A stretch of DNA of 64,000 nucleotides from Styela clava (lineage: Eukaryota). The DNA is taken from contig NC_135257.1 of assembly GCF_964204865.1 (NCBI RefSeq), positions 2,976,001 to 3,040,000 of the forward strand, in the 5' to 3' direction. Positions 6,001-57,900 of the stretch are shown here, in pieces (positions within the stretch are counted from its first letter, which is position 1; each line of letters begins with the position of its first letter). Position numbers: made by a program.

Positions 6001-9000
6001 CATAAAATAATATTGTATGTAAATAATCGCTTTCACTAAACATTTTTCGACATTAGATTTTAGTTATTTAAGCAAAATACTTTGGATTATCGACTACATT
6101 TTTTGCATTTTCATAAAATAACATTGTTGTTTGTCCCCAGTCTGTGAATGCTATTACCTTTCATTTGTCGTTCAAAATAATCGTTTCAATCATCGGGTGA
6201 AAATCTTGCTAATTCACCCTGCCAAGGAAATCCCTTAACAAAATGAAAGAACGATACCAGCCTGTCCTTTGGATTCCGCAATGTGTAAACGATCTGAAGA
6301 ATGATCACAAATAAAATTTTTCATTGCTTGTTTATTCATATTTTGTAAATACAATTTAAATTGTTTACTAAGTGGCATATAATACAGCTCTTCACTATGT
6401 TATATTTTACTTTTGTAAATCTATAATATCACTTCGAATGATCGATAGAATATTTTATTTCCAGAATTTTATTCTCTTAGCTTATATATACGTAACATAG
6501 GCTTGCCTTTATGTTCCTTTTTTCGTATTTTTCTAAATTCACCAATTCAGCTGGTAGATGTGTAACAAAATATCTTCTAGGTATAGGAATATTGTGCATG
6601 ACATTGAACTTTGAAGCTAAAATATACGACGACAACCATCAAGCATAAGTTATCACTTTGAAATAGCGACATTTGAGAAATCTACATAGTATTAAATAAA
6701 TAACAAGCGTACTGTGTTTGGGAAAAACAATGTTGTAGTGTATATTGAATTGTCTATTTTGAATGGAAGTAAAAATCATCAGTGCTATATAGGGCTCATT
6801 GTATGTTATTTACGTTTTAAAATGCCAACAAACAGTATCAAAGCAAACCCAATAGTAGGGCTACAAACGCGATAACATTGATCACGGTTTTTCTTAGTAA
6901 AAACAGTTGTAAGTGGGCATTCAATAGAATGATATGTATTTGTAACAATGTATCTATTAATTTCTACAATAACCTACGTGTACATGTTTCAAGATACAAA
7001 TGCGGTAAAGTGATATCTTTTGTCAGTTTATCAAGTTTTTCGTCTCTTCCATACAATATCTGACGAATAATTTCTCGAGTCCATGTTGTGCCTAAAAAGA
7101 ATACATAACTTGATATTGTCTGTCATTTTTCTGTTTCTTTTATTTGTAACTATTTTTTAAACCTGTTTTTACACACGATGCCACCATCACTTCGTTTTCT
7201 CTTGGCTCATGATGATCGAATGCATAAGATACTGTATCTGGATGGAACTGCGGAATGAATAAATGATCATTCCATTCTAGAACTTTGTCTTCTGGAGAGT
7301 ATGTGAAAGTATCTTGGAAATGGACGAAGTCTTTCTGGCACCATTCAGGTAGTTCTTGTTTTAGATTTGCCATAGAGTTTATTATTTACAAAAAACACTG
7401 CAATTATATGAAAGGGCCAAGTCTTGCATATTCAAATAAAATTTGATTGCATTGAAATAATAATATATAAAAGAAAAGTGTCAACCTTCTTATATTTAAA
7501 CTACCTTTGCTCGGTCGTAAAACTCCATAAAATGTATTTTGAACAAAACACTGAACCTGACTTTATATCTGCCGTGTTAAATGTAGTAAAATCGTCATTA
7601 TGATATAATAAAAGAGTTTATCCGTAAGAATGTAGCATGCGATATTATTTATTTTAGAAATTAATTCAGTCCGATGGAACCATATCGTAACAACATGAAT
7701 TATAATTAAACTTGAAAGAGATGTAACTTAACTATTCGATAGCAACAATATTCATATTGTCATCCAAAAAAAACTACCAATCCCACTATTCCACAGACCC
7801 AGTAGATCAGGTGCTAAACAGGAAACGAAACCATAAGAATGATAAGCACTCGCGCTATTTTCCCCCTATAAGCAACAGTAATTAAATAAGAAGCTGTTCC
7901 ATTTAATACTGCCATCCGAATTATATTTTTGTAGTCACTGTGTCTATTACGTTCGGATTTGGGTATAATCCACCCGTTTTAAGAATTTGAATTTAAGAAT
8001 CCTACTTTTCTACAAGCCCAGTGAGGTCTTTCCTGTAGACAACAGTAATTAAATTAAAGATTGTGTATTCAATATTGACGTCTGAATTCTATTTTTGTAG
8101 TCACTGCATCTATTATAGATGCGGATTTGGGTAGAATCCAAGTGTTTTCAGGATTGGCATTCGTCAGATAGTCTAAGTCGTATTAATGATTCCTTATTGA
8201 ATTTCACATATTAACGCTCTCGTTTTGTCCGTTTGCCACTACAAATCTTGGCGCAAACAATGTTTAATCCAAATGATGTGTGGTGTGGTACAAATGATTG
8301 GTCTCATAGGTTCTGTTGAAATATCACACATATCTAAAGTATTCAATCACAAATTATTATTAATTAGAAAATTTGCTGATAAATCATCTATCTATATTTC
8401 GGCAAAGTATAAGTACCTTAAATCACAAATTATTATTAATTAGAAAATTTGCTAATAAATCATGTATCTATATTTCGGCAAATTATGTGTACCTTGAATT
8501 GGCATTTAGTATATTCGATTCGATTTCCTGGTTTCGAACGGCTTTCCAAAGCTTATTGTCAAGGCCAGTTTCGTCTCATATTTGTTTCTTTATTGTGGCC
8601 TGAATGCCAAAAAAAAAACAAGTAGCGCTAGTGACGGGCTAGGTCCATCACGAGTATTTAGTGCTCTGCAAGTCTCTCTGCAACTTCAACTATTAATGCA
8701 CGAGTACCTTAAAAGCACATCTAAATAAGCACTGCAAAGTAGTTGGAAGTTACAACTAATGTACGTTCTTATTGCCAGAGTCAATTATTAACCTGCTTGA
8801 CCGACATATATTCCTCTGTAGAATACAAACCTTTTTTTAGTAAACAGTATCATTAGAGTGGTCTCGATAGCTACAATGTAAGGCGATTGAAGTTGTGCAA
8901 ACAAAACTCAATTTCCAGGCAGTTCAAATACTGTACGGTGTACGCAATATATATTACTAAGTGGGTTGGTTTGGCAGACGAATAGGTTTTTCAATGAATA

Positions 9001-54900: not shown

Positions 54901-57900
54901 TTTATTTTCTAATTGATTATTTTATTATTTTCAATCCAATGTCGTTTGCCTGATAATTGATGCTTTTCAAAGGAATTTTTGTATTAGACAATTAAAAAAA
55001 AAGGTTTTCAATAAACGTTTTTTGACATTAAAGATCCCAGTTATTTAACCAAAATACTTTGGACTAGACACTAAATCTTTGGTCTCTTTCTGGCATAAAA
55101 TAATATTGTATGTAAATAATCGCTTTCACTAAACATTTTTCGACATTAGATTTTAGTTATTTAAGCAAAATACTTTGGATTATCGACTACATTTTTTGCA
55201 TTTTCATAAAATAACATTGTTGTTTGTCCCCAGTCTGTGAATGCTATTACCTTTCATTTGTCGTTCAAAATAATCGTTCCAATCATCGGGTGAAAATCTT
55301 GCTAATTCACCCTGCCAAGGAAATCCCTTAACAAAATGAAAGAACGATACCAGCCTGTCCTTTGGATTCCGCAATGTGTAAACGATCTGAAGAATGATCA
55401 CAAATAAAATTTTTCATTGCTTGTTTATTCATATTTTGTAAATACAATTTAAATTGTTTACTAAGTGGCATATAATACAGCTCTTCACTATGTTATATTT
55501 TACTTTTGTAAATCTATAATATCACTTCGAATGATCGATAGAATATTTTATTTCCAGAATTTTATTCTCTTAGCTTATATATACGTAACATAGGCTTGCC
55601 TTTATGTTCCTTTTTTCGTATTTTTCTAAATTCACCAATTCAGCTGGTAGATGTGTAACAAAATATCTTCTAGGTATAGGAATATTGTGCATGACATTGA
55701 ACTTTGAAGCTAAAATATACGACGACAACCATCAAGCATAAGTTATCACTTTGAAATAGCGACATTTGAGAAATCTACATAGTATTAAATAAATAACAAG
55801 CGTACTGTGTTTGGGAAAAACAATGTTGTAGTGTATATTGAATTGTCTATTTTGAATGGAAGTAAAAATCATCAGTGCTATATAGGGCTCATTGTATGTT
55901 ATTTACGTTTTAAAATGCCAACAAACAGTATCAAAGCAAACCCAATAGTAGGGCTACAAACGCGATAACATTGATCACGGTTTTTCTTAGTAAAAACAGT
56001 TGTAAGTGGGCATTCAATAGAATGATATGTATTTGTAACAATGTATCTATTAATTTCTACAATAACCTACGTGTACATGTTTCAAGATACAAATGCGGTA
56101 AAGTGATATCTTTTGTCAGTTTATCAAGTTTTTCGTCTCTTCCATACAATATCTGACGAATAATTTCTCGAGTCCATGTTGTGCCTAAAAAGAATACATA
56201 ACTTGATATTGTCTGTCATTTTTCTGTTTCTTTTATTTGTAACTATTTTTTAAACCTGTTTTTACACACGATGCCACCATCACTTCGTTTTCTCTTGGCT
56301 CATGATGATCGAATGCATAAGATACTGTATCTGGATGGAACTGCGGAATGAATAAATGATCATTCCATTCTAGAACTTTGTCTTCTGGAGAGTATGTGAA
56401 AGTATCTTGGAAATGGACGAAGTCTTTCTGGCACCATTCAGGTAGTTCTTGTTTTAGATTTGCCATAGAGTTTATTATTTACAAAAAACACTGCAATTAT
56501 ATGAAAGGGCCAAGTCTTGCATATTCAAATAAAATTTGATTGCATTGAAATAATAATATATAAAAGAAAAGTGTCAACCTTCTTATATTTAAACTACCTT
56601 TGCTCGGTCGTAAAACTCCATAAAATGTATTTTGAACAAAACACTGAACCTGACTTTATATCTGCCGTGTTAAATGTAGTAAAATCGTCATTATGATATA
56701 ATAAAAGAGTTTATCCGTAAGAATGTAGCATGCGATATTATTTATTTTAGAAATTAATTCAGTCCGATGGAACCATATCGTAACAACATGAATTATAATT
56801 AAACTTGAAAGAGATGTAACTTAACTATTCGATAGCAACAATATTCATATTGTCATCCAAAAAAAACTACCAATCCCACTATTCCACAGACCCAGTAGAT
56901 CAGGTGCTAAACAGGAAACGAAACCATAAGAATGATAAGCACTCGCGCTATTTTCCCCCTATAAGCAACAGTAATTAAATAAGAAGCTGTTCCATTTAAT
57001 ACTGCCATCCGAATTATATTTTTGTAGTCACTGTGTCTATTACGTTCGGATTTGGGTATAATCCACCCGTTTTAAGAATTTGAATTTAAGAATCCTACTT
57101 TTCTACAAGCCCAGTGAGGTCTTTCCTGTAGACAACAGTAATTAAATTAAAGATTGTGTATTCAATATTGACGTCTGAATTCTATTTTTGTAGTCACTGC
57201 ATCTATTATAGATGCGGATTTGGGTAGAATCCAAGTGTTTTCAGGATTGGCATTCGTCAGATAGTCTAAGTCGTATTAATGATTCCTTATTGAATTTCAC
57301 ATATTAACGCTCTCGTTTTGTCCGTTTGCCACTACAAATCTTGGCGCAAACAATGTTTAATCCAAATGATGTGTGGTGTGGTACAAATGATTGGTCTCAT
57401 AGGTTCTGTTGAAATATCACACATATCTAAAGTATTCAATCACAAATTATTATTAATTAGAAAATTTGCTGATAAATCATCTATCTATATTTCGGCAAAG
57501 TATAAGTACCTTAAATCACAAATTATTATTAATTAGAAAATTTGCTAATAAATCATGTATCTATATTTCGGCAAATTATGTGTACCTTGAATTGGCATTT
57601 AGTATATTCGATTCGATTTCCTGGTTTCGAACGGCTTTCCAAAGCTTATTGTCAAGGCCAGTTTCGTCTCATATTTGTTTCTTTATTGTGGCCTGAATGC
57701 CAAAAAAAAAACAAGTAGCGCTAGTGACGGGCTAGGTCCATCACGAGTATTTAGTGCTCTGCAAGTCTCTCTGCAACTTCAACTATTAATGCACGAGTAC
57801 CTTAAAAGCACATCTAAATAAGCACTGCAAAGTAGTTGGAAGTTACAACTAATGTACGTTCTTATTGCCAGAGTCAATTATTAACCTGCTTGACCGACAT

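What the first reader, a model, noticed from the sequence alone, without database searches (positions are those of the whole stretch)
6186..55279. One shared in-frame TGA (W181*) in 5 of 8 copies: an amplicon that is mostly switched off
Seen: the codon-181 site is T (TGA) at 6186, 19287, 26074, 42177 and 48728, and C (TGG) at 12737, 32625 and 55279. The paralog has TGG, so TGA is derived. It is the only variant I saw shared between units. The 180-aa product would keep the 5'-PSB, catalytic His and 3'-PSB but lose the C-terminal half, and three downstream introns predict NMD. Inference: the null arose early and spread by unequal crossover or conversion, so enzyme dose could be set by the TGA:TGG ratio rather than copy number. 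Readthrough or a regulatory role for the null transcripts is possible but unsupported.
[Added by the scan's program, not by the reader: the finding's places include an assembly gap (unread letters, written N; its length is only estimated) at 20017 to 20216. Whether the letters on both sides are continuous or in frame is not known: test that first.]
Basis: partly seen in the sequence, partly recalled or inferred. Interest (0 to 1): 0.7.

Follow-up and report, generated by a model that had tools for sequence, protein, structure and literature searches.

The report
Sea-squirt sulfotransferase array, mostly null
A sea squirt (Styela clava) chromosome carries at least nine almost identical head-to-tail copies of a sulfotransferase gene, and most readable copies are disabled by the same stop codon; this looks like an ordinary young gene family caught while decaying, not a new regulatory device.

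Summary
The window holds a tandem array of 6,551-bp units, 99.92-100% identical. Each unit carries one 7-exon cytosolic sulfotransferase gene on the minus strand. The gene equals NCBI's 323-aa Styela clava protein "cytosolic sulfotransferase 3-like". Codon 181 reads TGA in 5 of the 8 copies whose exon 4 is in the window and TGG in 3. It is the only variant shared between units. TGG is ancestral.

- One of the three TGG copies (32625) has lost the intron-6 splice donor (GT to AT at 31683). Only 2 of 8 copies are fully intact.
- The allele order, T C T T C T T C, repeats perfectly every three units. This fits duplication of a three-unit block.
- A ninth copy is cut off by the window start. The N gap also lies inside the array, in intron 2, with flanks that overlap by 36 nt. 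Copy number and order are therefore not secure.

My best reading is a young birth-and-death array in which a null allele was co-amplified. The dose-by-ratio idea has no support, because dose would follow the number of intact copies. I found no SECIS or other recoding signal. Without reads I cannot exclude haplotype mixing or array mis-assembly. Interest is modest.

The parts
1..58322 (-). Tandem array of 6,551-bp units, head to tail. Units: U0 partial 1-3185; U1 3186-9736; U2 9737-16287; U3 16288-20016 and, after the gap, 20217-23073; U4 23074-29624; U5 29625-36173; U6 36177-45727 with an insertion; U7 45728-52278; U8 52279-58322, which ends at unit position 6044.
   Evidence: blastn of one unit against the window gives 99.92-100% identity.
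1..822 (-). Ninth gene copy (U0), cut off by the window start. Exon 1 is at 822-610, exon 2 at 541-428, and part of exon 3 at 63-1. Its codon 181 lies outside the window.
   Evidence: tblastn of P0001, 100% identity.
4978..7373 (-). Gene copy U1. Codon 181 is TGA (6188-6186). All splice sites are canonical.
11529..13924 (-). Gene copy U2. Codon 181 is TGG (12739-12737). Fully intact. Exons: 13924-13714, 13642-13529, 13167-13058, 12844-12709, 12337-12219, 11967-11796, 11638-11529.
   Evidence: The per-exon translations equal P0001.
18080..19717 (-). Gene copy U3, exons 3-7 only, left of the gap. Codon 181 is TGA (19289-19287). There is a private 1-nt deletion in an A run of intron 4 at 19003.
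20017..20216 (.). Assembly gap (N) inside intron 2 of the array unit. The flanks overlap by 36 identical nt, at unit positions 3695-3730.
20315..20710 (-). Exons 1-2 right of the gap. They may or may not belong to the same gene as 18080-19717.
24866..27261 (-). Gene copy U4. Codon 181 is TGA (26076-26074). The unit is 100% identical to U1.
31417..33812 (-). Gene copy U5. Codon 181 is TGG (32627-32625), but the intron-6 donor is AT instead of GT (+ strand C to T at 31683). There is a synonymous change at 32161.
36972..39966 (+). Insertion of a 5'-truncated non-LTR retrotransposon. It has an open 947-codon reading frame (RVT_1 and zf-RVT) and a poly(A) tail. It sits in an A7 run of the spacer between gene copies U5 and U6.
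40969..43364 (-). Gene copy U6. Codon 181 is TGA (42179-42177). There is a synonymous change at 43338.
47520..49915 (-). Gene copy U7. Codon 181 is TGA (48730-48728).
54071..56466 (-). Gene copy U8. Codon 181 is TGG (55281-55279). Fully intact. This is the edge unit of the array.
60480..63930 (-). Diverged paralog with 7 exons, no stops and the same splice signals, including the GC donor of intron 3. W is kept at the equivalent codon.

Best explanation
This is a very young tandem amplification, or a concertedly evolving array, of a cytosolic sulfotransferase gene in the ascidian Styela clava.

Shown:
- A single G-to-A change turned Trp-181 into a stop in one unit.
- That unit type now makes up 5 of the 8 readable copies.
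- A sixth copy is disabled independently by a splice-donor mutation.
- Two copies remain intact.

Inferred:
- The nonsense change arose while the array was still small.
- Later growth duplicated multi-unit blocks by unequal crossing-over. A T-C-T triplet of about 19.65 kb fits best.
- The null allele therefore rose in number passively.
- The null copies have the same promoter sequence as the intact ones, so they are probably transcribed.
- Their mRNA would be an NMD substrate.
- Any 180-aa product would be inactive. It would lack the C-terminal 44% of the fold, including one core strand and the glycine-rich PAPS loop.
- Functional dose equals the number of intact copies.

Overall this is birth-and-death evolution of a gene of the cytosolic sulfotransferase class (from general knowledge, often conjugating small molecules and xenobiotics), not a regulatory device.
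For: Array and variants:
- Units are 99.92-100% identical over 6,551 bp.
- U1 (T) and U2 (C) differ only at the site. The mutation therefore sits on the same unit background.
- The allele order T C T T C T T C has exact period 3. Only 2 of 56 arrangements of 5 T and 3 C do.

Gene identity:
- Exon 4 alone finds 3 of 3 hits in Styela clava. P0001 matches at 100% and is 323 aa.
- The per-exon translations equal P0001.
- Pfam Sulfotransfer_1 matches 4 of 7 exons in colinear profile order.
- The best solved relative is SULT1C2, E = 9.5e-32.
- The AlphaFold model has pLDDT 83.3. It matches SULT structures with target-normalised TM-scores of 0.70-0.86.

Ancestry and past function:
- W is ancestral.
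- dN/dS between the array gene and the neighbouring paralog is 0.21, summed from per-exon counts, with dS 0.21. The gene was therefore under purifying selection.

Other disablement:
- The U5 intron-6 donor is AT rather than GT.

Evidence that units are physically distinct:
- One unit alone carries a retrotransposon insertion.
- There are 14 private variants.

Age:
- Private divergence is about 14 variants in about 52 kb. Genome-wide heterozygosity of the species is reported as 1.72% (passages of PMC7540406). This points to a very recent origin or to homogenisation.
Against: - The assembly broke inside the array. There is a gap with 36-nt overlapping flanks.
- U1 and U4 are 100% identical, and neighbouring units differ at one base in 6.5 kb. 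Only reads longer than about 13 kb could order the alleles.
- Period 3 could be a graph loop rather than history. At 2 of 56 it is only suggestive.
- No private variant is shared at a distance of three units.
- 8 of the 14 private variants cluster in 31683-36708, beside the insertion. This could mark a switch to the other haplotype.
- Expression, NMD and enzyme activity were not testable here.
- The Styela subfamily has F/L/G-T where 20 of 24 aligned sequences have R and 17 of 24 have K, just before the GxxGxWK loop. Even the intact protein's PAPS binding is therefore unproven.
Confidence: 0.55

Rival explanations
1. Assembly or haplotype artefact. The T/C difference exists in the sequenced animal, but its assignment to particular units is unreliable, and so is the number and order of units. 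One possibility is that T and C are alleles of two haplotypes whose reads were woven into one path. Another is that a shorter real array was traversed repeatedly.
For: - The N gap lies inside the array, and its flanks repeat the same 36 nt.
- Units are identical apart from one base.
- Exact period 3 is what a loop in an assembly graph would give.
- The species is reported as 1.72% heterozygous. The published genome was built from noisy long reads with short-read correction (passages of PMC7540406). I do not know whether this window comes from that assembly.
- 2 of the 14 private variants are 1-nt changes in A runs. This is a typical consensus error.
Against: - Five identical transitions are not consensus noise.
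- A collapsed or mixed site would usually give one majority base in every unit, not an alternation.
- A private 3-kb retrotransposon insertion and 12 private substitutions give real anchors for at least U5, U6, U7 and U8.
- NCBI's protein cluster for P0001 holds 9 member sequences on one contig. This is compatible with several gene copies in an annotated assembly.
Confidence: 0.3
2. Adaptive dosage tuning. After amplification, too much enzyme was costly, and selection favoured null copies inside the array. Alternatively, PTC-bearing transcripts act on the intact copies, for example through NMD-triggered transcriptional adaptation. In either case the mix of null and intact units is maintained by selection.
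For: - The null sits on otherwise intact, identical units, including the promoter region.
- A second, independent disabling change hit one of the remaining TGG copies. Repeated loss could be read as selection for less activity.
- The ancestral gene was under purifying selection.
- Heterogeneous duplications that pair alleles of different function are known in insects at ace-1. This is recalled, not from a call.
Against: - Nothing in the sequence distinguishes this from neutral co-amplification and decay.
- Two independent disabling hits in eight redundant copies is what relaxed selection predicts.
- The truncated product lacks the C-terminal region that, from recall, carries the SULT dimer motif. 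A dominant-negative role is therefore unlikely.
- No population, expression or fitness data were available.
Confidence: 0.07
3. The TGA is not a stop in this context. It would be read as selenocysteine, as tryptophan, or by programmed readthrough, so the five copies would be functional.
For: - TGA means Trp in the ascidian mitochondrial code. Under table 13, exon 4 of a T copy reads through as W.
Against: - The gene has seven exons with spliceosomal introns. It matches an NCBI nuclear gene model on a 23.8-Mb contig.
- Table 13 also changes 7 other codons in exons 3-4. This includes the conserved Arg of the PxPRxF motif, which becomes Gly.
- No SECIS or any other Rfam family was found in the whole window at gathering score. 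None was found in one full unit at E <= 1.
- TGG, not TGA, is found in the paralog and in 9 of 9 tunicate homologues.
- The base after the stop is A. From recall, this is not a leaky context.
Confidence: 0.02

Closest known systems
Cytosolic sulfotransferases (SULT; Pfam PF00685 Sulfotransfer_1), e.g. human SULT1C2 (2ad1/2gwh) and SULT1A1
   Same: - The domain is the same.
- The fold is the same.
- The 5'-PSB lysine loop, the catalytic His and the 3'-PSB Arg/Ser are kept.
- Length is about 300 aa.
   Different: - Identity to solved SULTs is only 22-27%.
- There is a roughly 55-residue N-terminal extension ahead of the stretch that aligns to solved SULTs.
- The Arg-Lys pair before the GxxGxWK loop is replaced by F-T. 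Only the three Styela subfamily members do this.
- The substrate is unknown.
Young, copy-number-variable tandem gene arrays shaped by unequal crossing-over and gene conversion, e.g. Drosophila melanogaster Sdic (PMC7475035; passages read)
   Same: - Units are several kb long, head to tail and nearly identical. The Sdic reference array has six copies spanning about 46 kb (passages).
- Transposable-element insertions are private to single units.
- In Sdic at least one copy carries a premature stop.
- That paper reports that copy number did not track expression.
   Different: - In Sdic all 31 annotated copies kept coding potential, and variants differ at the 3' end.
- Here one nonsense allele dominates the array, and the units are far more uniform.
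Modular gene/pseudogene arrays such as the human RCCX module with CYP21A2/CYP21A1P (PMC8362596; search listing and start of abstract only)
   Same: Tandem modules mix functional and null copies of an enzyme gene. Unequal exchange changes the module number.
   Different: - RCCX modules are old and differ at many sites.
- Here the null and intact units differ by a single base, and eight or more modules are seen.
Heterogeneous duplications that pair alleles of different function (ace-1 in mosquitoes; recalled, no call)
   Same: Two functionally different alleles sit in tandem on one chromosome, so the mix could set the phenotype.
   Different: - In ace-1 both alleles encode active enzyme and a fitness trade-off has been measured.
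- Here one allele is a plain null, and no trade-off is known.

Membership tests
Cytosolic sulfotransferase (Pfam PF00685) | Match to the Sulfotransfer_1 profile above the curated cut-off | tested here: met
   searched exon by exon. Exons 4, 6 and 7 score 26.3, 34.2 and 24.1 bits against a cut-off of 22. Exon 5 scores 17.6 bits, below the cut-off. Exons 1-3 give no hit. The profile positions run colinearly from 93 to 255. The precomputed Pfam annotation on NCBI's record P0001 is PF00685.
Cytosolic sulfotransferase (Pfam PF00685) | 5'-phosphosulfate-binding loop (K-x-G-T-T-W) | tested here: met
   K69 and G71 are invariant in 26 of 26 sequences. T72 and W74 are kept in at least 90%. The loop spans the exon 1/2 junction.
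Cytosolic sulfotransferase (Pfam PF00685) | Catalytic histidine, and the 3'-phosphate-binding Arg and Ser | tested here: met
   H128, R151 and S159 are each invariant in 26 of 26 sequences. The assignment of roles to these residues is recalled from the SULT literature.
Cytosolic sulfotransferase (Pfam PF00685) | C-terminal glycine-rich PAPS loop (GxxGxWK core) | tested here: met
   G288, G291, W293 and K294 are present. The preceding R-K is F-T here. At column 286, R is seen in 20 of 24 sequences. At column 287, K is seen in 17 of 24. This pair is conserved but not invariant in the family.
Cytosolic sulfotransferase (Pfam PF00685) | SULT alpha/beta fold | tested here: met
   The model has pLDDT 83.3 and pTM 0.85. 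The Foldseek top hits listed are solved sulfotransferases, most with PAP or PAPS bound, with probability 1.00 and target-normalised TM-scores of 0.70-0.86.
Cytosolic sulfotransferase (Pfam PF00685) | PAPS-dependent sulfonation activity | not testable with these tools
   An enzyme assay is needed.
Tandem array under unequal crossing-over or concerted evolution | Head-to-tail units that are much more alike than the nearest paralog | tested here: met
   Units are 99.92-100% identical. The flanking paralog is 81-87% identical.
Tandem array under unequal crossing-over or concerted evolution | Copy number varies between individuals or haplotypes | not testable with these tools
   No reads or other genomes were available.
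NMD substrate (exon-junction rule) | Stop codon more than 50-55 nt upstream of the last exon-exon junction | tested here: met
   The stop lies 28 nt before the exon 4/5 junction and 319 nt before the last junction. I computed this from the coordinates. The rule itself is recalled from vertebrates. One search listed no ascidian test among the 12 papers shown.
NMD substrate (exon-junction rule) | Depletion of the PTC allele in mRNA | not testable with these tools
   No RNA data were available.
Selenoprotein or programmed recoding of UGA | A SECIS element in the transcript, and conservation of TGA in homologues | tested here: not met
   There were 0 Rfam matches in the window at gathering score. 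There were 0 in one unit at E <= 1. Homologues have W: the paralog and 9 of 9 tunicate sequences.

The most novel reading that the evidence does not exclude
The array is real. Its mix of null and intact units is maintained by selection as a dosage device in an invasive ascidian. Amplification raises the capacity for sulfonation. Nonsense and splice-null units then dial it back. Alternatively, their PTC-bearing transcripts feed back on the intact copies through NMD-triggered transcriptional adaptation. Unequal exchange would let populations retune the intact-copy number quickly.
Probability: 0.07. Interest if true: 0.6.

Novelty: new member of a known kind. Interest (0 to 1): 0.3.

Why it matters
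If the array is real, it is a clean natural snapshot of the first steps of gene-family birth and death. Null and intact units differ by a single base over 6.5 kb, so they share the same promoter sequence. Allele-specific RNA counts at one site would therefore measure NMD efficiency in a tunicate directly. Copy counts across native and invasive populations would show whether intact-copy number is under selection. The finding also warns annotators that counting copies overstates functional dose here. At most 2 of the 8 readable copies can make the full protein.

Tried and rejected
- **Ascidian mitochondrial code (TGA = Trp).** Rejected. Table 13 also alters 7 other codons in exons 3-4, including a conserved Arg. 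The gene also has spliceosomal introns.
- **Selenocysteine or a structured recoding signal.** There were 0 Rfam matches in the window and 0 in one unit at E <= 1.
- **tRNA genes.** None were found.
- **Restoration of TGG by conversion from the neighbouring paralog.** Rejected by inference. The paralog differs two and three codons downstream (DDWNEFF against DDWNDYF). The three TGG units carry none of these differences.
- **Skipping of exon 4 as a rescue.** Exon 4 is 136 nt, so skipping it would shift the frame.
- **Repeat scan of the insertion.** It gave only short, chance-like repeats. A target-site duplication cannot be resolved, because the A7 on both sides merges with the poly(A) tail.
- **The listing of cluster members for P0001-P0003.** How NCBI annotated the individual copies therefore stayed unchecked.
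- **Truncated annotated product.** No separate 180-aa record from the TGA copies appeared among the 109 hits of 177-566 aa. Such a record could still be hidden inside P0001's cluster.
- **Literature.**
  - A search for 'Styela clava', 'genome' and 'sulfotransferase' found no paper describing this array. In that listing the S. clava genome paper has 0 occurrences of 'sulfotransferase'.
  - The Didemnum genome paper only mentions tunicate-wide sulfotransferase-domain orthogroups (passages).
  - A search on NMD, Ciona and the exon junction complex listed no ascidian-specific test among the 12 papers shown.
- **Supplementary tables.** These are closed. The S. clava genome paper's tables of expanded gene families might mention the family, and I could not see them.
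- **Sequence collections.** The closed metagenome and viral contig collections, and the bacterial/archaeal genome collection, were not used.

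
Full report
**What is in the sequence**

The window is AT-rich. GC is 0.29-0.36 in 2-kb steps. One run of N lies at 20017-20216.

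A blastn of one unit against the window shows a head-to-tail array of 6,551-bp units from position 1 to 58322:
- a partial unit U0 at the window start;
- eight further units, U1 to U8;
- U3 is interrupted by the N run;
- U6 carries a 3-kb insertion;
- U8 ends at unit position 6044.

Units are 99.92-100% identical to U1, and U4 is 100% identical. A diverged relative, 81-87% identical, follows at 60284-64000.

**The site**

- T at 6186, 19287, 26074, 42177 and 48728;
- C at 12737, 32625 and 55279.

A base-by-base list of differences shows this is the only variant shared by more than one unit. Twelve other differences are private to single units. Two more private changes sit at the U5/U6 border. 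Two of the 14 private variants are 1-nt changes in A runs.

**The gene**

I read the minus strand of U2 and derived seven exons:
- exon 1, 13924-13714;
- exon 2, 13642-13529;
- exon 3, 13167-13058;
- exon 4, 12844-12709;
- exon 5, 12337-12219;
- exon 6, 11967-11796;
- exon 7, 11638-11529.

The acceptors are AG and the donors are GT. Intron 3 is the exception, with a GC donor. The neighbouring paralog has the same GC donor.

Searches on my own model were made exon by exon.
- Pfam finds Sulfotransfer_1 in 4 of 7 exons, in colinear profile order. Exons 4, 6 and 7 score above the curated cut-off and exon 5 scores below it. Exons 1-3 give nothing.
- Exon 4 alone finds 3 of 3 hits in Styela clava. 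The best is the 323-aa NCBI record 'cytosolic sulfotransferase 3-like isoform X1' (P0001) at 100% identity.
- The per-exon translations of every copy equal the matching stretches of P0001.

The organism is therefore the ascidian Styela clava, not human. NCBI's independent gene model has the same exon structure. For full-length work I used this database record rather than a sequence of my own making.
- The best solved relative is human SULT1C2, E = 9.5e-32.
- An AlphaFold model built from a 26-sequence alignment of named records has pLDDT 83.3 and pTM 0.85.
- The model matches solved sulfotransferases with probability 1.00 and target-normalised TM-scores of 0.70-0.86.

**Codon 181**

The variable base is the third base of the 36th codon of exon 4, which is codon 181 of the protein. 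It reads TGG (Trp) in U2, U5 and U8 and TGA in U1, U3, U4, U6 and U7.

Trp is ancestral.
- The flanking paralog has W there.
- In alignment A1, W is found in 15 of the 25 sequences that cover the column.
- W is found in 9 of 9 tunicate sequences other than P0001.

The three TGG copies were not restored by conversion from the paralog. The paralog differs two and three codons downstream, and the TGG units carry none of these differences. This step is an inference.

**What the truncation removes**

Residues K69, G71, T72, W74, H128, R151 and S159 all lie before codon 181. K69, G71, H128, R151 and S159 are invariant in 26 of 26 sequences. Their catalytic roles are recalled from the SULT literature.

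The stop removes 143 of 323 residues. In the model these comprise one strand of the central sheet (220-224), eight helices and the GxxGxWK loop at 288-294.

Introns 4, 5 and 6 lie downstream. The stop is 28 nt before the next junction and 319 nt before the last one (coordinates). Under the vertebrate exon-junction rule, which I recall from memory, this predicts NMD. One search listed no ascidian test of that rule among the 12 papers shown.

**New points**

1. *A sixth disabled copy.* U5 is one of the three TGG copies. Its intron-6 donor is AT instead of GT, from a C-to-T change on the + strand at 31683.
   - Reading on from the mutated donor, the frame meets a stop within a few codons.
   - The next GT is out of phase with exon 7.
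   - Only U2 and U8, 2 of 8 copies, are intact in both reading frame and splice signals.
   - The other two exonic private variants, 32161 and 43338, are synonymous.

2. *Three-unit periodicity.* The allele order along the array is T C T T C T T C, with exact period three. Only 2 of the 56 arrangements of five T and three C have this property.
   - This fits growth by duplication of a three-unit block of about 19.65 kb.
   - It is also what an assembly-graph loop would give.

3. *Copy number is not fixed by this window.*
   - U0 is a ninth copy whose exon 4 lies left of the window.
   - The N gap sits in intron 2.
   - The 36 nt before the gap are identical to the 36 nt after it, at unit positions 3695-3730.
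   - The two sides are therefore not a simple continuation.
   - Either the contig ends overlap and nothing is missing, or an unknown number of whole units is missing.
   - Exons 3-7 of the copy with TGA at 19287 lie left of the gap. The exons 1-2 that would complete it lie right of it.

4. *A private retrotransposon.* The 3-kb insertion at 36972-39966 is a 5'-truncated non-LTR retrotransposon.
   - It has an open 947-codon frame (RVT_1, E = 6.7e-34, and zf-RVT) and a long poly(A) tail.
   - It sits in an A7 run of the spacer between gene copies U5 and U6.
   - It shows that the assembled units are not all copies of one consensus.

5. *Clustered private variants.* Eight of the 14 private variants lie between 31683 and 36708, next to that insertion. 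This stretch is either an older unit or a piece of the other haplotype.

**Age and selection**

Per-exon counts, summed without building a spliced sequence, compare the array gene with the flanking paralog. They give dS 0.21, dN 0.045 and dN/dS 0.21. The gene therefore evolved under purifying selection before the array formed.

Within the array, about 14 private differences in about 52 kb contrast with the 1.72% heterozygosity reported for the species (passages of PMC7540406). The units thus coalesce far more recently than typical alleles, or they are being homogenised.

That paper describes an assembly from PacBio RS II reads with FALCON, Illumina correction and Hi-C. I do not know whether the window comes from that assembly, and I did not try to find out.

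**Interpretation**

The most economical reading is a young tandem amplification in which one nonsense mutation arose while the array was small and was then carried along by block duplication. A second copy has since been lost to a splice mutation. This is birth-and-death evolution of a kind well known for tandem gene families.

Comparable cases:
- The Drosophila Sdic array has units several kb long (six copies in about 46 kb in the reference strain), private transposon insertions, a copy with a premature stop, rampant gene conversion, and copy number that does not track expression (passages of PMC7475035).
- The human RCCX gene/pseudogene modules are another analogue. I saw only the listing and the start of the abstract of PMC8362596.

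The proposal that dose is set by the TGA:TGG ratio is not supported by anything in the sequence. All units share the same flanking sequence. Functional dose should therefore follow the number of intact copies, here at most two of eight.

Recoding is unlikely:
- No Rfam family, SECIS included, was found in the window or in one unit at E <= 1.
- There is no conservation of TGA in homologues.
- The ascidian mitochondrial code turns the TGA into Trp. It also alters seven other codons in exons 3-4, including a conserved Arg.

**Main uncertainty**

Everything above the level of 'a T and a C exist at this site' depends on an assembly that broke inside the array. Without reads I cannot tell a true paralogous variant from two alleles woven into one path. 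I also cannot confirm the copy number. I give the real-array reading 0.55 and the artefact reading 0.30.

**What stayed unchecked**
- The supplementary tables of the genome paper (closed).

Noticed in passing
window 31683 (U5, minus-strand intron-6 donor): A private C-to-T change on the + strand turns the GT donor of intron 6 into AT. It lies in one of the three TGG copies, so that copy is probably null too.
   Followed up: yes
window 36972-39966: A 5'-truncated non-LTR retrotransposon on the + strand. It has an uninterrupted 947-codon frame (RVT_1, zf-RVT) and a poly(A) tail. No endonuclease domain was found. It is inserted at an A7 run in one unit only, and its intact frame suggests a very recent insertion.
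   Followed up: partly
window 13057-13056 and 63064-63063 (minus strand): Intron 3 uses a GC donor (AAG|GCAAGC) in the array gene and in the diverged paralog. NCBI's protein model P0001 implies the same junction.
   Followed up: partly
P0001 residues 286-287 (exon 6 end, window 11802-11797 in U2): The Arg-Lys pair that precedes the GxxGxWK PAPS loop in most aligned sulfotransferases is F-T here, and L-T and G-T in the two closest Styela paralogs. Only these 3 of 24 sequences deviate in this way. The model is also poorly confident at residues 269-288. Cofactor binding by this subfamily may be unusual.
   Followed up: partly
window 60480-63930: The flanking paralog shows all seven exons open with canonical signals. 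The public 183-aa record that matches it (P0002) skips the end of exon 3 and runs into intron 4, so it looks like an incomplete gene model.
   Followed up: partly
window 10898-10960 (minus strand; the same place in every unit): A public 282-aa Styela clava model (P0005, 88% identical to P0001) has unusual features. Its first 21 residues are 100% identical to this spacer ORF. It then has Val where the array gene has Met-1. It ends exon 4 exactly before the codon equivalent to W181, and it has a shifted C-terminus. It may be a decayed paralog lying just beyond the other end of the array. Whether it also has a stop at that codon could not be checked, because its DNA is not in the window.
   Followed up: partly
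window 31683-36708: 8 of the 14 private variants of the array cluster in this 5-kb stretch beside the retrotransposon. The remaining roughly 45 kb holds 6. This could be an older unit or a switch to the other haplotype.
   Followed up: no
unit positions 5152-5314 (e.g. window 14888-15050): A short internal tandem duplication of about 75 bp, with copies about 90% alike, lies in the spacer upstream of each gene.
   Followed up: no
window 58070-58257: The edge unit U8 carries three private substitutions within 190 bp of the array's end at 58322. The outermost unit of a tandem array is expected to be less homogenised, so this fits.
   Followed up: no
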